Shown piece by piece: positions 21,001 to 33,000 of a DNA stretch of 64,000 nucleotides. Position 1 is the stretch's first letter, and every line of letters starts with the position of its first letter. Made by a program: the position numbers. Source of the stretch: Ruditapes philippinarum (lineage: Eukaryota); the NCBI RefSeq assembly GCF_026571515.1, contig NW_026860085.1:124001-188000 (forward strand), written 5' to 3'.

Positions 21001-24000
21001 TTTTTTTTCTATTTTTTATATAAATTTTTACTACCTTATTGAACACGCATTTGCGGTATATCCATGTAACAGTCAACAAAATTTAATTTGTCATTTTGTA
21101 TAGTAGGGGAAATATAAACAGGCCTTTGGGCATTTTACACATGCTACAAAAACGAGGAAATTGACTTGAAAGGTGTGTTTTATTGAAGCTCAATTATCGA
21201 TTTTGATTAATAACTTTACGATTGTTATTGTTAGACACTTTTGTATACCAGAGTATTTAACATTGGATTATAAGGAAGAAATAAAAATGAAATTTAATAG
21301 AAATTGCCTATTTTGTGTAATTTTAATCTTGACAATTTCCTTCAGTGAAGCTAGACATCTTAAGGGGAAAATATCGGATGCTGCCACGAGAATATCACAA
21401 TCTTTAAATCAACAAAGTATTATGCAATCCGGAAATGATAATTCTGTATTAAAAAGGAACAGTAATTCAGTCGTCGCAATATCACAAAATGACAGAAACA
21501 ACAAAACAAAGATGTCGTCGAAACCACAGCTTGGAGAATTTAAATCAATACCAAACATACTGCATGAACACTCCGAACAGCAAGATCGCGAGACAACTTT
21601 GTTAACTAAGAAACAAAGCGATCTAACCAAGGGTGGAACGGATTCTTTTGTCTCCAGTAACATTATTCAACATGTGAACCAGCATCATCCAAACGCAAGC
21701 AAAACAATAACAAATGCTATTGCTGTAAAAGAAAGAAATGGGGATAATACAAAAAGTATTGAATTTGAATCTAATACAAGCACAAACTCTCTTCGAAATA
21801 ATGAGCATCATGATTTGCACAAAGATAATAATATCAAACCAGGAGCAAAGACTCTAGGTTCAAGTGTTCAGTCTGTTTCGGAAAACGATGCTGTAGTTGT
21901 AGCTAAAGACGATTCAAAAAATCGTCTAAGACCAACAGTTACTGTTTTTATCGAGGAGAAAAATCCGAACGGCCACACTCAAAGAGTCATTGCAAGCAGT
22001 GGAGATGGTGTCATAAAGAGTAAAACTGTGCATGTCAACGATGAAACGTTAGATTCCAATGGAAGTGAAAGAGTTTCTCCTAATGATATACTTAACACTG
22101 CTGATTCATCAAATAAATTAGAAAACAATGAGGTATCCCCTAATGTGATACTGAATAATGATGCCACAACTAACATAATAGAGCACAGTGATGTCCAAGC
22201 TGATGTAATAGGACAAAGCGATGTCCCATCGAACCATATAGAACACAGTGGTGTCCCAGTTAATGGAGTAGAACACATCGATGTCCAAGCTAATGGAGTA
22301 GAACACAGCGTATTTCCATCTAATGTTATAGAACACAGTGATGTCCCAGCTAATGAAGTAGAAAGTAACGAAGTCCCAGCTAATGTTGATGAACACAGTG
22401 ATGACCTAACTGGTGTTGATGATGTTTTAGAAAAGGAAATCAAGCATACCGATAGCTTATCTGTTGATAAAGAACACAGCGATGTCTCAGCTAATTTACT
22501 TGTTACAGGAACCAATGTAGATTCAGCTAACATTATTGAAGACGGTGAAATTTCAGCTAATGCAGTTAATATCAATAAAGTTTCATCTGATATAAAAGTA
22601 CACGATAAAGACTCGTCTAGTGATAGAGAAAATAATGAAATTTCTTCTGACAAAATAAATAACAATGAAGTCCATGCTGATCAAATGAAAACTAACGAAG
22701 TGCTGCACGAAAACACGTTAAGGGAGGAGGATACAGGACATAAAGCTATGACAAGGAATGAAGCGATAAGTGAAAATTATGATTCGAAGATAACCCCCAC
22801 AATGGCAGTTTTGGATAACGCACATGACAATAAAATGCCTTTGAAAAACATAGTGGAACCAGCAGAAGCTAATGCTGACAATCTGCACAATGTTGACACT
22901 ACAGGTACCAGTATATGTATCACTAGTTGACTTTTTCTGGCTGTATTAATAACAGTATTTTGTTTATTTTCTTATACTGTAANNNNNNNNNNNNNNNNNN
23001 NNNNNNNNNNNNNNNNNNNNNNNNNNNNNNNNNNNNNNNNNNNNNNNNNNNNNNNNNNNNNNNNNNNNNNNNNNNNNNNNNNNNNNNNNNNNNNNNNNNN
23101 NNNNNNNNNNNNNNNNNNNNNNNNNNNNNNNNNNNNNNNNNNNNNNNNNNNNNNNNNNNNNNNNNNNNNNNNNNNNNNNNNNNNNNNNNNNNNNNNNNNN
23201 NNNNNNNNNNNNNNNNNNNNNNNNNNNNNNNNNNNNNNNNNNNNNNNNNNNNNNNNNNNNNNNNNNNNNNNNNNNNNNNNNNNNNNNNNNNNNNNNNNNN
23301 NNNNNNNNNNNNNNNNNNNNNNNNNNNNNNNNNNNNNNNNNNNNNNNNNNNNNNNNNNNNNNNNNNNNNNNNNNNNNNNNNNNNNNNNNNNNNNNNNNNN
23401 NNNNNNNNNNNNGCAAATATTTTTCACAAACCATACATACATACATATATACATACATACGTACGTACATACAAACACGCACGCATGCATGCATGCACGC
23501 ACGCACGCACGCACGCACGCACATACATACATACAAAACACATGTGCTTTCTTTAATTCACAAATAATTTTCGTTATGTTTTCAGGCAACGCTGTCAGAC
23601 ATATTTCAATACCTGAAACGACAGTGATAACAACAGAATCACCAACAGTAATGGCAACAACGTGGAGTAGATCTACAAAGATGACAACTCCTACAACACC
23701 TAAAATTGTGAACAAGAACCGGCCCACAGCTGCAGCGCCTACAGTGCGAAGACCAGAGGACGTAACACCGCTTGATATTTTTACTTCTGATATAAAATAT
23801 CAGAGGTTCCCTAGGCCAATGAGTCTAACAACTTTAAAGAACAAGGTAATTGAATAATAGGCACCTCTTTATTTAGAAACAGGACCATGATCTCTCTTTA
23901 GTTTAGTTTAAACAAAATTATTCTAGCTCGATTGCAAAACAATTTCTTGCAACTTATATTAATCACTTTCGTACTGGTGGCATATGAAGAAACGTGGATG

Positions 24001-30000: not shown

Positions 30001-33000
30001 TCGATTAAAAATATTTCCAGTCCGTCGTGTAAAAACACAACGGAGTCCCTTTTAATGCAGAATTTTATAAGCAAGTAAATATAATTCATGCGCTTTGTCT
30101 AAATCCTTTTCTGTGACAATGCCAATGTATGTTGACTGATTTTATAAGACAGTTCCATTGGCGCGATTTGGGTGGTTACGGTCGTTGATTTAAAAAAAAC
30201 AATTGCCCCTCATCGCAGTTGGTTTGAATCCCGACAGGGATTTTGCATTCTTTCATGTGAGGAAGTTATCTAGCTAGCTTACATAACCTTGGTTGTTCAT
30301 CTCAGGTGCCCGTTCATGCCCGAAATAATGCAAGGGAGAGCACCTGAGATCTTCATCCGCCAGTAAAGCTGAGAAGTCGCCATATGACCTATAATGTGTT
30401 GGTGCGACTTAAAACCCAACTAAAAATAAATACTAGAGAAAATAAAAGGAAACGAAAACTTGAAACAGCACATTTGGATAAATCATTTCTTTTACTTCTT
30501 TATTTTCATAGATTTATATACTCAAGAAAATGCCAAGAAATCAAGAAATTTAAAATGGGAAATCTTGTTGGAAACACAGATATTGCAATGTTTGAAAAAG
30601 GTAAACCAAGCATTTATTACACGGATATATATCCAGTCTTCGTTTTTGAATTTGAAAAATGAACATGTCAAGCTATTAATGAATACATAAATGTTTTTAT
30701 CTTATAAATTTTATTTCTGAAAGAATATATAAGATGCTGCAAAATGTAGAAATGATTGTTCAAACAACACATAGACGCTTGAATTTTTCAATCAATTTCC
30801 TGATACAATGAGTTTGTCCGGTGGATTTGCTTTTTTTTAATTGGAACAATCCATTCTTATATGTAATCATATATCTATATAGGTTGTTCAATATAAAATG
30901 CGAAATTTAACTAGACTACATGTATATACACAAAAAAGAATTTGGTCAGACTGTACTTTACCTGAATGTTTGGTAGGCAAACACATTGTTTATGATCCGA
31001 ATAAAATATTGAAATATTTAATAGATTTATATGGTGGCATATTTCTGCCACCAGATAACCTGATAACTATCTAGTTAGTTATCAGGTTAACTAGTTGCGT
31101 AACTACTTAACCTCTTAATTAACTAGTTAGGTATCAGGTTAACTAGTTACGTAACTAGTTAACCTCTTAATTAACTAGTTAGGTATCAGGTTAACTAGTT
31201 ACCTAACTAGTTAACCTCTTAATTAACTAGTTAGGTATCAGGCTATCTGGTGGCAGAAATATGCCACCATAGATTTATTATAATGTTACTGTTATTTAAT
31301 ATATTAAACACATTTAAATGTTTAGTACGTCCTCTTTACAAATGGAAAATTCATAGAGCGATAGTTTCAAGGTGGCGCGATAGCTCAGTTGGTTAGACCA
31401 CTGACTGTCACTCCTGAGGTTCCGGGTTCGATCCTGGGTAACACCCTTGGGATTTTTCAGAGACACTTTCAGTGTTTCCCACCTACCTAGAGGTTTACTG
31501 GTAAGAAACCCAGGTAATCCTCGCATGTATCAGTGCTATACACTGGGCATGTAAAAGAACCAGGGGGTCTTTTCAATAAGAGCTAGGGATTGGTTCCCGG
31601 ACTCCATTGTATCTCATAGCTGTCTCTAGAGTCTGGTGAGGTAAGGATCCTACTGGAAATAAGTGCTTGCACTTTCGTAGGTTATCCTTGACCGCCCGGT
31701 CTAAAGAAAATCAATATCGATCAATCAATCAATAGTATATTCGTGTGTTATAGTTCTTTAAACCTGCTGCTACCCATGCGACCGGTGCAGACTGCAGACC
31801 AATATCATCTGGCACATTAATTGGGTCTGAGCATGGTCTGTACTGTTCGCTATTCAGTTAGTAAACATTTTGAAATTTAACCAGAAATGTTGTCCAGATT
31901 GAAAGATATACGTGTTCATTTAAGATATACAGTATAGCGGAAAAAGTACTTTATTTGATTTATATCTATTATTACATTCTGTATTTCTATATAAAATGTG
32001 ATGGGTTACATGAATTGAAAATTAAAACATTAATTATGATACTTTTTTGTATTACACAGAAATGGATGATGGGAAAACGGAGCGTATAATGTTTTTCTCA
32101 GAGCGCCCTGAAGACTATGTATTCTTTATGTCCTGCACGGATATGAAGACGTCACCATACGCGTGTAGAGATTCTTATTATGTCACATTAGATACAACAC
32201 ATGACCCACCAAATCAGTTTCCGTGGGCCGATGCAGCAAATGAACTAGAGTCCAAACTTAGCATAACTTTTGAGGATCCGAGATTTATTTTCAACTTCGT
32301 ACTCTTGCGTAAGTTTTTTTTTCATTGTATGTTAATCAATTTGTGAAACGTCTGTGTAATAGATGGAAATTATGTTGCATACATAGATTTTAACTTCTTG
32401 TTTGTATTTTCTATGCAATACTTTTGCAGAAACTTGTATTCTGGAACCATTTTGGAAGAAAAAACTGTGTTACTAACGTCTCAACCACATGAAACTGCAT
32501 GTCCTTGCCTTTCACAATGCTCTGTGATTTTGTTTCCATTATTCATAATTTTCGTTATATGTAAGCGTTATCAGCTAAATCTAAATTGTATTTCAACATA
32601 AACTAGTATGGAAATGATTTTAATGATATTTACCTTCTATGATAAAAGAAATCAACAAAGCTTAGAAAAATCCTAATCAAATATTGCTATATACAGAATC
32701 CTGTTTTAATTGTTTGAGGAAGTTTCTGAAATATATTTTACATTTATAAGATATATCTATGGTACTTTATACACGTGCTTACATTTTGTTGACAACTTTG
32801 TGAAAGGCTTTAAAATACAACGATGCTATTTGTTTGCTGTAATTGCACTGTTAGATTCATATTTCTTTAATTTTATTGCAGCTTGTGCTAGAAGGTCATG
32901 ATGGAGCTGACAAACTGAGATAATAATGATGCCAAATGTTCTCTGGAACAAATTTGAGAACTCATGTGTACATGTAAAATCTGTGATGAATAATATATCT

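What the first reader, a model, noticed from the sequence alone, without database searches (positions are those of the whole stretch)
23586..32901. Cryptic lipocalin domain fused to a ~600-aa acidic low-complexity secreted protein
Seen: four small exons spread over 8 kb of transposon-filled introns encode a ~160-aa globular tail with 4 Cys. Known, from recall: DYVFFMSC-x9-CRDSYYVTL resembles RBP4/purpurin TYAVQYSC-x8-CADSYSFVF. A helix followed by a terminal Cys, a phase-0 intron just before the GxW position, then phase 2 and phase 1 introns and an 89-nt exon match ApoD-type lipocalin gene structure. The GxW tryptophan, the TDY motif and the SCR3 arginine are all lost (VLGKPL, SERPEDY, TLDTT), so it would be an outlier lipocalin. 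Inference: a hydrophobic-ligand (pigment, retinoid or lipid) carrier tethered to a mineral- or matrix-binding stalk, for example anchoring pigment in shell or periostracum.
Basis: partly seen in the sequence, partly recalled or inferred. Interest (0 to 1): 0.72.

Follow-up and report, generated by a model that had tools for sequence, protein, structure and literature searches.

The report
Hidden lipocalin-like domain in clam protein
A Manila clam gene encodes a secreted protein with a long floppy front part and a small, well-conserved end domain that probably folds like a lipocalin (a cup-shaped carrier of small greasy molecules), although standard sequence databases do not recognise it.

Summary
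The window carries a six-exon gene on the + strand (21287-32901). It matches RefSeq LOC132758803 of Ruditapes philippinarum (788 aa, "uncharacterized protein") apart from alignment edges that run into introns.

The protein has four parts:
- a signal peptide;
- about 570 aa of fast-evolving, mildly acidic (pI 5.0), N/S/V/D-rich low-complexity sequence;
- a Thr/Pro-rich linker;
- a conserved C-terminal domain of about 193 aa (68-88% identity between clam genera, against 16-28% for the front part).

The lipocalin reading is partly supported.
- For: ESM Atlas models of two orthologues match lipocalin clusters best (TM 0.59-0.63 over 147-161 residues). The intron phases fit the published lipocalin pattern 0,2,1,1,1.
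- Against or silent: Pfam and PDB sequence searches found nothing. Profile-profile comparison with bacterial lipocalins was not significant (9 of 150 shuffles reached the score). Two AlphaFold2 runs were low confidence (pLDDT 42 and 35), and their Foldseek searches gave nothing at E <= 0.001.

The GxW tryptophan is absent, so I call this a lipocalin-like outlier, not a proven family member. The pigment or shell-anchoring idea was not tested. Only clam relatives were found.

The parts
21287..22904 (+). Exon 1. Holds the start codon, a 22-aa signal-peptide-like hydrophobic N-terminus (21287-21352), then about 517 aa of N/S/V/D-rich low-complexity sequence. The donor is in phase 1.
   Evidence: ORF and sequence. 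Composition: pI 5.0, GRAVY -0.84. tblastn of P0135 residues 1-543 at 99.4%. AF2 shows only a helix at residues 3-17 and a hairpin at 219-237, with the rest unstructured at low confidence.
22176..22403 (+). Tandem repeat of 30 nt x 7.6 copies inside exon 1. It encodes imperfect decapeptide repeats of the type IEHSDVPAN.
   Evidence: Tandem Repeats Finder; translation.
22905..23585 (+). Intron 1 (phase 1). It contains the N stretch 22983-23412, which I did not fill, and (CATA)n/(CACG)n microsatellites at 23432-23522.
   Evidence: RefSeq protein residues are continuous across the ex1/ex2 junction.
23586..23845 (+). Exon 2. A basic Thr/Pro-rich linker (pI 10.6), then from 23753 (PEDV...) the start of the conserved C-terminal domain. 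It ends in phase 0.
   Evidence: Conservation across Ruditapes, Mercenaria and Dreissena.
24546..24676 (+). Exon 3, 131 nt (VLGKPLKKLYILEE...LYVSFLF). Predicted beta-strands A to C; no tryptophan. It ends in phase 2.
   Evidence: hhalign local alignment to bacterial Blc (not significant).
24997..28689 (.). Repeat element of about 3.7 kb inside intron 3, bounded by 224-nt inverted repeats (96% complementary) that carry 19-21-nt subterminal tandem repeats. No long ORF, so it is a likely non-autonomous DNA transposon.
30512..30600 (+). Exon 4, 89 nt (FIYSRKCQEIKKFKMGNLVGNTDIAMFEK). Carries the first conserved Cys. Entered in phase 2, left in phase 1.
   Evidence: One of 5 open 89-nt candidates. 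It is the one matched by P0001-P0004 and P0135.
32060..32308 (+). Exon 5, 249 nt. The most conserved part, with Cys-x9-Cys (FFMSC...YAC), the single conserved Trp (FPW) and a predicted helix. It ends in phase 1.
   Evidence: (99/89/75/70% identity to four clam proteins).
32882..32901 (+). Exon 6. Completes the Pro codon, then CARRS and the TGA stop. Carries the fourth conserved Cys, five residues from the C-terminus.
   Evidence: The P0135 C-terminus ...PCARRS.

Best explanation
The window holds the Ruditapes philippinarum gene LOC132758803.

Shown:
- It has six exons and encodes a 788-aa protein.
- The protein has a signal-peptide-like N-terminus, about 570 aa of rapidly evolving low-complexity sequence, a Thr/Pro-rich linker and a strongly conserved C-terminal domain of about 193 aa with four Cys.

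Inferred (about 0.7): the C-terminal domain is an eight-stranded lipocalin (calycin) barrel with a C-terminal helix. It would descend from an ordinary lipocalin gene, because the intron phases are kept, but it has lost the GxW tryptophan.

Inferred more weakly: Cys677-Cys784 would tie the C-terminus to the barrel and Cys725-Cys735 would staple the G-H hairpin. The barrel would hold a small hydrophobic ligand outside the cell. It would do so either displayed on the long, probably O-glycosylated stalk, or after release at the conserved basic site just before PEDV.
For: Gene model:
- Exon-by-exon reading and splice sites.
- RefSeq proteins P0135 and P0001 and the Mercenaria and Dreissena orthologues have the same architecture.

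Selection: domain identity is 169 of 193 and 130 of 192, against 153 of 539 and 90 of 548 for the front part. The four Cys are conserved in all 4 full domains.

Fold:
- The ESM Atlas's own model of P0003 (pLDDT 0.60) has as its two nearest clusters purpurin-like (TM 0.63, 151 aligned) and prostaglandin-D synthase (TM 0.62, 149 aligned).
- For P0002 residues 576-772, the first 6 of 10 rows are lipocalin clusters (TM 0.59-0.63, 147-161 aligned).
- Feature neighbours are all in the lipocalin clan: 10 of the ten best hits that carry a family, with scores of 0.86 and 0.89.
- Both AF2 runs, though low confidence, give the same order of elements: six or seven strands followed by a 12-residue helix near the C-terminus.
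- Twelve lipocalins and 4 FABP-type calycins are among the 45 rows shown by Foldseek, all with E > 0.1.

Gene structure: phases 0,2,1,1 against 0,2,1,1,1 for ApoM, Ptgds and the amphioxus lipocalin gene (PMC3184775, passage).
Against: - No Pfam family reached significance, either exon by exon or on four whole orthologues. No lipocalin model was listed even at E <= 10.
- No PDB sequence hit appeared with single sequences or profiles.
- hhalign against 13 named and against 78 diverse bacterial lipocalins gave probability 1.3% and 1.1%. In the shuffle control, 9 of 150 column shuffles reached the observed score.
- AF2 mean pLDDT was 41.7 and 34.8. Foldseek gave 0 matches at E <= 0.001 in both searches, and the best TM to a lipocalin was 0.36.
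- Atlas feature scores are below 0.9, which the tool calls a lead only. The tool also says a third of shuffled proteins get ten of ten hits in the same clan.
- The two Atlas models are of proteins 72% identical to each other, so they are not independent.
- The GxW Trp, a near-universal lipocalin feature, is absent.
- Nothing here bears on ligand, tissue or localisation.
Confidence: 0.6

Rival explanations
1. The conserved C-terminal domain is a beta-rich domain of another or a new fold. The lipocalin resemblance would then be an artefact of language-model structure prediction on a strand-rich sequence.
For: AF2 gives no confident fold. Foldseek gave 0 matches at E <= 0.001 in both searches, and GFP-like and FABP barrels rank with or above lipocalins. 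Pfam, PDB and hhalign were all negative or non-significant. The GxW Trp is missing.
Against: Two orthologues' Atlas models align 147-161 residues to lipocalin clusters at TM about 0.6, while the non-calycin rows stay at or below 0.50. The order of secondary-structure elements, the Cys placement and the intron phases 0,2,1,1 all fit lipocalins.
Confidence: 0.22
2. The protein is a precursor. The low-complexity front part is a pro-region, and a free lipocalin-like protein of about 190 aa is released by cleavage at the basic residues just before PEDV. This would resemble the way AMBP is split into its lipocalin and bikunin parts.
For: A basic residue directly precedes the conserved domain in all three long orthologues: RR in Ruditapes, RK in Mercenaria, R in Dreissena. 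The front part evolves freely. AMBP is a known lipocalin fusion (PMC8420045, passage). That AMBP is cleaved is recalled, not read.
Against: There is no canonical R-x-K/R-R furin motif, and Dreissena has a single Arg. No proteomic data are available. This reading is compatible with the best explanation rather than opposed to it.
Confidence: 0.2
3. The fusion is an annotation artefact. Exon 1 and the lipocalin-like exons would belong to separate transcripts, as the 166-aa domain-only model of Mya arenaria might suggest.
For: P0003 (Mya arenaria) is a domain-only model. All the models are computational predictions, and I could not see any transcript evidence.
Against: Models from three genera, plus two R. 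philippinarum loci, join the parts in the same way. The splice phases fit: a phase-1 donor of ex1 with a phase-1 acceptor of ex2. The conserved domain starts inside ex2, upstream of where the Mya model begins, so that model looks truncated. A four-Cys domain needs the signal peptide that only ex1 supplies.
Confidence: 0.08

Closest known systems
RBP4 / purpurin / ApoM-type chordate lipocalins
   Same: They are the nearest structure clusters in the ESM Atlas: purpurin-like at TM 0.63, retinol-binding protein 4-A-like at 0.59, and an A1AG/ApoM cluster at 0.59. The domain size is similar. A short Cys-x9-Cys hairpin plus a Cys near the C-terminus resembles their extra disulfide pattern (RBP4 and APOM share three disulfides: PMC8420045, passage).
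   Different: There is no detectable sequence similarity. There is no GxW Trp. The domain has a front extension of about 600 aa. It was found only in clams. According to PMC3184775, RBP4 genes differ from the 0,2,1,1,1 phase pattern.
ApoD / Lazarillo / bacterial Blc (Pfam PF08212, PF00061)
   Same: An ApoD cluster matches at TM 0.62 over 160 residues. The only hhalign alignment, to Blc, lies in the expected register, with strand A and the B-C hairpin aligned (LEAIYTIEDG on VTATYSLRDD).
   Different: That alignment is not significant (probability about 1%; 9 of 150 shuffles reached the score). The Trp of GTW is replaced by Leu. The Pfam models do not match.
Ptgds / ApoM / amphioxus lipocalin gene structure
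   Same: The intron phases 0,2,1,1 within the domain equal the first four of the published 0,2,1,1,1 (PMC3184775, citing Sanchez et al. 2003, which the library does not hold).
   Different: There is one intron fewer; ex5 at 249 nt would correspond to two fused exons. I could not compare intron positions residue by residue, because no eukaryotic lipocalin gene was available to the tools.
AMBP (alpha-1-microglobulin/bikunin precursor)
   Same: It is a lipocalin domain encoded in one gene with a non-lipocalin part (PMC8420045, passage).
   Different: In AMBP the partner is a folded Kunitz inhibitor placed C-terminal to the lipocalin. Here the partner is a disordered low-complexity region placed N-terminal, and no Kunitz domain was found.
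Crustacyanin and other pigment-binding lipocalins; the lipocalin-domain protein of the Mya truncata shell proteome
   Same: They are extracellular lipocalins associated with an exoskeleton or shell. A lipocalin domain was reported only in M. truncata among four bivalve shell proteomes (PMC5854119, passage). Crustacyanin is recalled, not read.
   Different: Those are recognisable by standard domain models and this one is not. No evidence places this protein in shell, mantle or periostracum.

Membership tests
Lipocalin (calycin superfamily; Pfam PF00061 / PF08212) | Eight-stranded antiparallel beta-barrel followed by an alpha-helix and a final strand | tested here: inconclusive
   The ESM Atlas's own models match lipocalin clusters at TM 0.59-0.63 over 147-161 residues. 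AF2 gave pLDDT 41.7 and 34.8, with the right order of strands and helix but no confident barrel. Foldseek gave 0 matches at E <= 0.001 in both searches.
Lipocalin (calycin superfamily; Pfam PF00061 / PF08212) | SCR1 motif G-x-W on strand A (motif recalled from general knowledge of the family) | tested here: not met
   There is no Trp in the ex2 tail or ex3 of any of the 4 full orthologues. The non-significant hhalign alignment puts a conserved Leu (KKLYILE) on the Trp of Blc GTW.
Lipocalin (calycin superfamily; Pfam PF00061 / PF08212) | SCR2 (T-D-Y) and SCR3 (conserved Arg) motifs (recalled) | tested here: inconclusive
By eye only. P-E/D-D-Y is conserved before FFMSC. No significant alignment covers this region.
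Lipocalin (calycin superfamily; Pfam PF00061 / PF08212) | Significant match to the family's sequence models | tested here: not met
   Pfam hmmscan of 5 exon translations and 4 whole orthologues at E <= 10 listed no lipocalin model. PDB phmmer and hmmsearch found no lipocalin. hhalign probability to Blc profiles was 1.1-1.3%.
Lipocalin (calycin superfamily; Pfam PF00061 / PF08212) | Disulfide tying the C-terminal segment to the barrel | not testable with these tools
   Four Cys (677, 725, 735, 784 in P0001/P0135 numbering) are conserved in all 4 full domains. The spacing is compatible, but the pairing needs a confident model or chemistry.
Lipocalin (calycin superfamily; Pfam PF00061 / PF08212) | Conserved gene structure with intron phases 0,2,1,1,1 | tested here: met
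   The domain's four introns have phases 0,2,1,1. The published pattern comes from PMC3184775. One intron is missing, and positions were not compared residue by residue.
Lipocalin (calycin superfamily; Pfam PF00061 / PF08212) | Secreted (signal peptide) | tested here: inconclusive
   The hydrophobic N-terminus MKFNRNCLFCVILILTISFSEA is modelled by AF2 as a helix at residues 3-17. No signal-peptide predictor was available.
AMBP-type lipocalin fusion | Kunitz inhibitor domains fused to the lipocalin | tested here: not met
   No Kunitz or any other Pfam domain was found in P0001, P0002 or P0004. The one PDB hit, to a Kunitz chain at E 2.6, is noise.
Mollusc shell matrix protein | Detected in the shell proteome or expressed specifically in mantle | not testable with these tools
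   No paper in the library names LOC132749570, LOC123559868 or LOC128235757 (I did not search LOC132758803). Supplementary tables were closed and could hold such hits.

The most novel reading that the evidence does not exclude
A clam-specific family, so far seen in Veneridae, Myidae, Dreissenidae and a few unnamed contigs. In it a tryptophan-less lipocalin barrel, descended from the ancestral animal lipocalin gene with the 0-2-1-1 intron phases kept, is permanently tethered to a fast-evolving glycosylated stalk of about 600 aa. It would work as a matrix- or mucus-anchored store for a small hydrophobic molecule, such as a shell or periostracum pigment.
Probability: 0.12. Interest if true: 0.65.

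Novelty: new variant of a known kind. Interest (0 to 1): 0.4.

Why it matters
If the fold call is right, this is a lipocalin family that Pfam and ordinary sequence searches do not see. It would lack the family's hallmark tryptophan and would be joined to a long disordered region, an arrangement I found described for no lipocalin in the passages I read.

It would add a lineage-restricted branch to a family whose invertebrate members are poorly charted. It would also give a concrete candidate for small-molecule handling in clam secretions.

It also bears on method. Here the intron phases and language-model structures, not sequence profiles, carry the evidence of relationship.

As it stands it is a modest finding: one uncharacterised, already annotated gene with a plausible fold assignment and no functional data.

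Tried and rejected
- **Pfam, exon by exon**. Only sub-threshold noise: Pneumo_phosprot, Fn3_ELFN, Cbl_N3, EcpB_C, PilZN3.
- **Pfam on whole orthologues**. Noise only.
- **PDB sequence searches**.
  - A weak hit of P0003 to a DM10-region of EFHC2 (E 0.92). I rejected it because it is not significant and the profile searches did not repeat it.
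  - An exoribonuclease hit (E 0.67) and a Kunitz chain (E 2.6), both noise.
  - The clean domain profile gave 0 hits.
- **Full scan of 1.84 billion representatives with P0003**. Seven proteins at E <= 0.001, all clam orthologues or fragments.
- **Profile search with A4**. Eleven proteins at E <= 10 among 4409 candidates, all orthologous pieces. It found no bridge to canonical lipocalins.
- **AF2 twice**. Both were low confidence.
- **Foldseek against PDB twice**. Nothing was significant.
- **hhalign against bacterial Blc**.
  - I built Blc profiles because no eukaryotic lipocalin sequence could be obtained from the tools.
  - The first Blc protein search returned only near-identical enterobacterial sequences, so I added 78 more diverse ones from genome contigs.
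  - The result stayed non-significant.
- **hhalign technical failures.** The -glob mode gave a meaningless end-overlap alignment.
- **tRNA and Rfam scans of 21000-33500**. They found nothing, so the SINE-like stretch near 23990-24070 remains unclassified.
- **Sanchez et al. 2003 on lipocalin introns.** The library does not hold it.

Full report
**What is there.**
- The window is AT-rich (about 33% G+C) and is bivalve sequence, not human.
- The translation of exon 5 finds four clam proteins and nothing else among 21 candidates:
  - Ruditapes philippinarum, 99% identity, 788 aa;
  - Mercenaria mercenaria, 89%, 772 aa;
  - Mya arenaria, 75%, 166 aa;
  - Dreissena polymorpha, 70%, 827 aa.
- A cluster look-up shows two R. 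philippinarum RefSeq loci with 788-aa proteins. They differ at 16 positions.
- One of them, XP_060606486.1 (LOC132758803, P0135), fits the window. It is 99.4% identical over exon 1, and the few mismatches everywhere lie at alignment edges that run into introns.
- RefSeq names the gene "uncharacterized protein".

**How I handled the spliced model.** I searched the window's exons one by one and did not join them. Whole-protein analyses used database proteins that the searches returned (P0001-P0004, P0135). These are RefSeq's own models.

**Gene anatomy**. All five introns are GT-AG.

| Exon | Coordinates | Length | Phase at its 3' end |
|---|---|---|---|
| 1 | 21287-22904 | 1618 nt | 1 |
| 2 | 23586-23845 | 260 nt | 0 |
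| 3 | 24546-24676 | 131 nt | 2 |
| 4 | 30512-30600 | 89 nt | 1 |
| 5 | 32060-32308 | 249 nt | 1 |
| 6 | 32882-32901 | 20 nt | stop codon |

- Of five open 89-nt AG...GT/GC candidates, only 30512-30600 is matched by the orthologues.
- All 788 residues of the RefSeq protein are placed on these exons, so none is expected in the N stretch 22983-23412. I left that stretch alone.
- The introns hold repeats:
  - an element of about 3.7 kb bounded by 224-nt inverted repeats (24997-25220 / 28466-28689, 96% complementary);
  - G+C-rich 11-54-nt tandem arrays at 28884-29830;
  - a palindromic 52-nt array at 31030-31271;
  - an interspersed repeat at 30196-30430 that recurs at 14506-14740.
- No transposase or RT ORF of 110 aa or more lies in the introns, and there is no tRNA or Rfam match.

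**The protein.**
- The exon 1 product starts with a hydrophobic signal-peptide-like segment.
- It is otherwise N/S/V/D-rich: pI 5.0, GRAVY -0.84, 86 D+E against 50 K+R in 539 aa.
- It contains a 30-nt x 7.6 tandem repeat.
- Exon 2 encodes a basic Thr/Pro-rich linker.
- Conservation begins inside exon 2 at PEDV (23753) and runs to the C-terminus.
- Identities:

| Pair | C-terminal domain | Front part |
|---|---|---|
| Ruditapes vs Mercenaria | 169 of 193 | 153 of 539 |
| Ruditapes vs Dreissena | 130 of 192 | 90 of 548 |

- The only conserved front motif common to all three follows the signal peptide (RHL...SDAAT).
- Four Cys are conserved in all four complete domains.

**How wide the family is.**
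- HMMER read all 1.84 billion representatives and found 7 proteins at E <= 0.001.
- A profile search found 11 at E <= 10 among 4409 candidates.
- All of these are clam orthologues or single-exon fragments. None carries a Pfam domain.
- I found no relative outside this group and no intermediate towards canonical lipocalins.

**Is the domain a lipocalin? Evidence for.**
- The ESM Atlas holds its own models of P0003 and P0002.
- For P0003 (model pLDDT 0.60) the two nearest structure clusters are purpurin-like (TM 0.63, 151 residues aligned) and prostaglandin-D synthase (TM 0.62, 149 aligned). All other rows are at or below 0.50.
- For P0002 residues 576-772, rows 1-6 of 10 are lipocalin clusters, with TM 0.59-0.63 over 147-161 residues. 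They are:
  - two arthropod lipocalin clusters;
  - RBP4-A-like;
  - A1AG/ApoM;
  - a bacterial Lipocalin_2 fusion;
  - ApoD.
- Feature neighbours score 0.86 and 0.89, and all ten best hits with a family are in the lipocalin clan.
- Both AF2 runs, though poor, place six or seven strands and then a 12-residue helix near the C-terminus, in the same positions.
- The four introns inside the domain have phases 0,2,1,1. PMC3184775 (passage read) reports 0,2,1,1,1 for the amphioxus lipocalin gene and for vertebrate ApoM and Ptgds, citing Sanchez et al. 2003, which the library does not hold.
- With commonly quoted phase frequencies (my recollection), that four-phase pattern would arise by chance in roughly one case in a hundred.

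**Is the domain a lipocalin? Evidence against or silent.**
- Pfam lists no lipocalin model even at E <= 10, for 5 exon translations and 4 whole orthologues.
- PDB sequence and profile searches find no lipocalin.
- AF2 mean pLDDT was 41.7 (P0003 with 9 rows) and 34.8 (P0001 with 8 rows; domain blocks 33-56).
- Foldseek against PDB gave 0 matches at E <= 0.001 both times.
  - In one search, 12 lipocalins and 4 FABP-type proteins are among the 45 rows shown, but all have E > 0.1 and TM at or below 0.36.
  - In one search, FABPs and GFP-like barrels dominate.
- To run a profile-profile test I needed lipocalin sequences from a tool.
  - I took E. coli blc and 13 named relatives.
  - I added 78 more diverse bacterial homologues.
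- hhalign gives one local alignment of 45-46 columns in the expected register: KKLYILE on GTWYEIA and LEAIYTIEDG on VTATYSLRDD. Its probability is 1.1-1.3%, and 9 of 150 column shuffles reach its score.
- The Atlas tool itself warns that scores under 0.9 are leads only. The two models are also of proteins 72% identical to each other.

**Verdict on the fold.**
- A lipocalin-like barrel is the best reading; I put it near 0.7. Membership by sequence is not shown.
- One defining motif, the GxW tryptophan, was tested and is not met.
- I therefore describe the domain as a lipocalin-like outlier and do not file it as a lipocalin.

**Function.**
- Nothing here tests function.
- From the anatomy I infer an extracellular protein whose conserved barrel is the working part. 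The freely evolving front region with its Thr/Pro linker would be a spacer, probably glycosylated, or a pro-region.
- A basic residue directly precedes the domain in all three long orthologues: RR, RK and R. Release of a free domain of about 190 aa is therefore possible.
  - A lipocalin domain was reported in the Mya truncata shell proteome (PMC5854119, passage), but that one was recognisable by standard models.
  - No paper text names LOC132749570, LOC123559868 or LOC128235757; I did not search for LOC132758803.
  - Supplements, where proteome tables sit, were closed.

**Novelty.**
- The gene is annotated but uncharacterised.
- A lipocalin-like barrel without the hallmark Trp, placed behind a disordered region of about 600 aa and confined to a few clam families, is a new variant of a known kind.
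- AMBP shows that lipocalin fusions exist (PMC8420045, passage), but with a folded C-terminal partner.
- Interest is moderate (0.4).

Noticed in passing
window 301-1157 (+): Two adjoining ORFs in different frames match reverse transcriptase RVT_1 (E 5.8e-23 and 0.0021). This is a frame-broken retroelement fragment.
   Followed up: partly
window 44309-45370 (-) and 49982-50521 (-): Two mucin-like ORFs on the opposite strand. The first holds at least 26 copies of a 27-nt (9-aa, APVKVTSTG-type) repeat. Both end in a similar Cys-bounded motif (CP.G.YN...TVTF.LDE.EC.M), so they look like paralogues. Neither has a Pfam family.
   Followed up: partly
window 56738-58506 (-) and 36292-37960 (-): Further long Thr-, Ser- or Asn-rich ORFs with 21-33-nt repeats and no Pfam match. 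The gene sits in a neighbourhood of low-complexity, probably secreted proteins.
   Followed up: no
window 15915-16985 and 53000-53718: Arrays of a satellite of about 162 nt occur at two places 36 kb apart.
   Followed up: no
window 24997-28689: An element of about 3.7 kb in intron 3 with 224-nt terminal inverted repeats (96% complementary). The repeats carry 19-21-nt subterminal tandem repeats, and there is no long ORF. It is a likely non-autonomous DNA transposon.
   Followed up: partly
window 21845-22120 (exon 1): An island of conservation in the otherwise divergent front part: 48.5% identity to Mercenaria over 101 aa. It includes the segment that AF2 models as the only hairpin of that region (residues 219-237, low confidence). 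Dreissena shows no tblastn match to exon 1.
   Followed up: no
RefSeq proteins P0001 and P0135 (R. philippinarum): Two loci, LOC132749570 on a 15.5-kb contig and LOC132758803 on a 460-kb contig, encode 788-aa proteins differing at 16 positions. They are probably two haplotype copies in the assembly rather than paralogues.
   Followed up: partly
window 5959-7335 (+): ORFs with a proline-rich stretch and a lysine-rich stretch followed by ...AAGTTWEDPSLGEWD. This reminds me of the N-terminal part of RNA-binding protein 42, from recollection only. Pfam found nothing in these two ORFs.
   Followed up: no
window 58881-59011: A second N stretch (131 bases), outside the finding. I left it untouched.
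   Followed up: no
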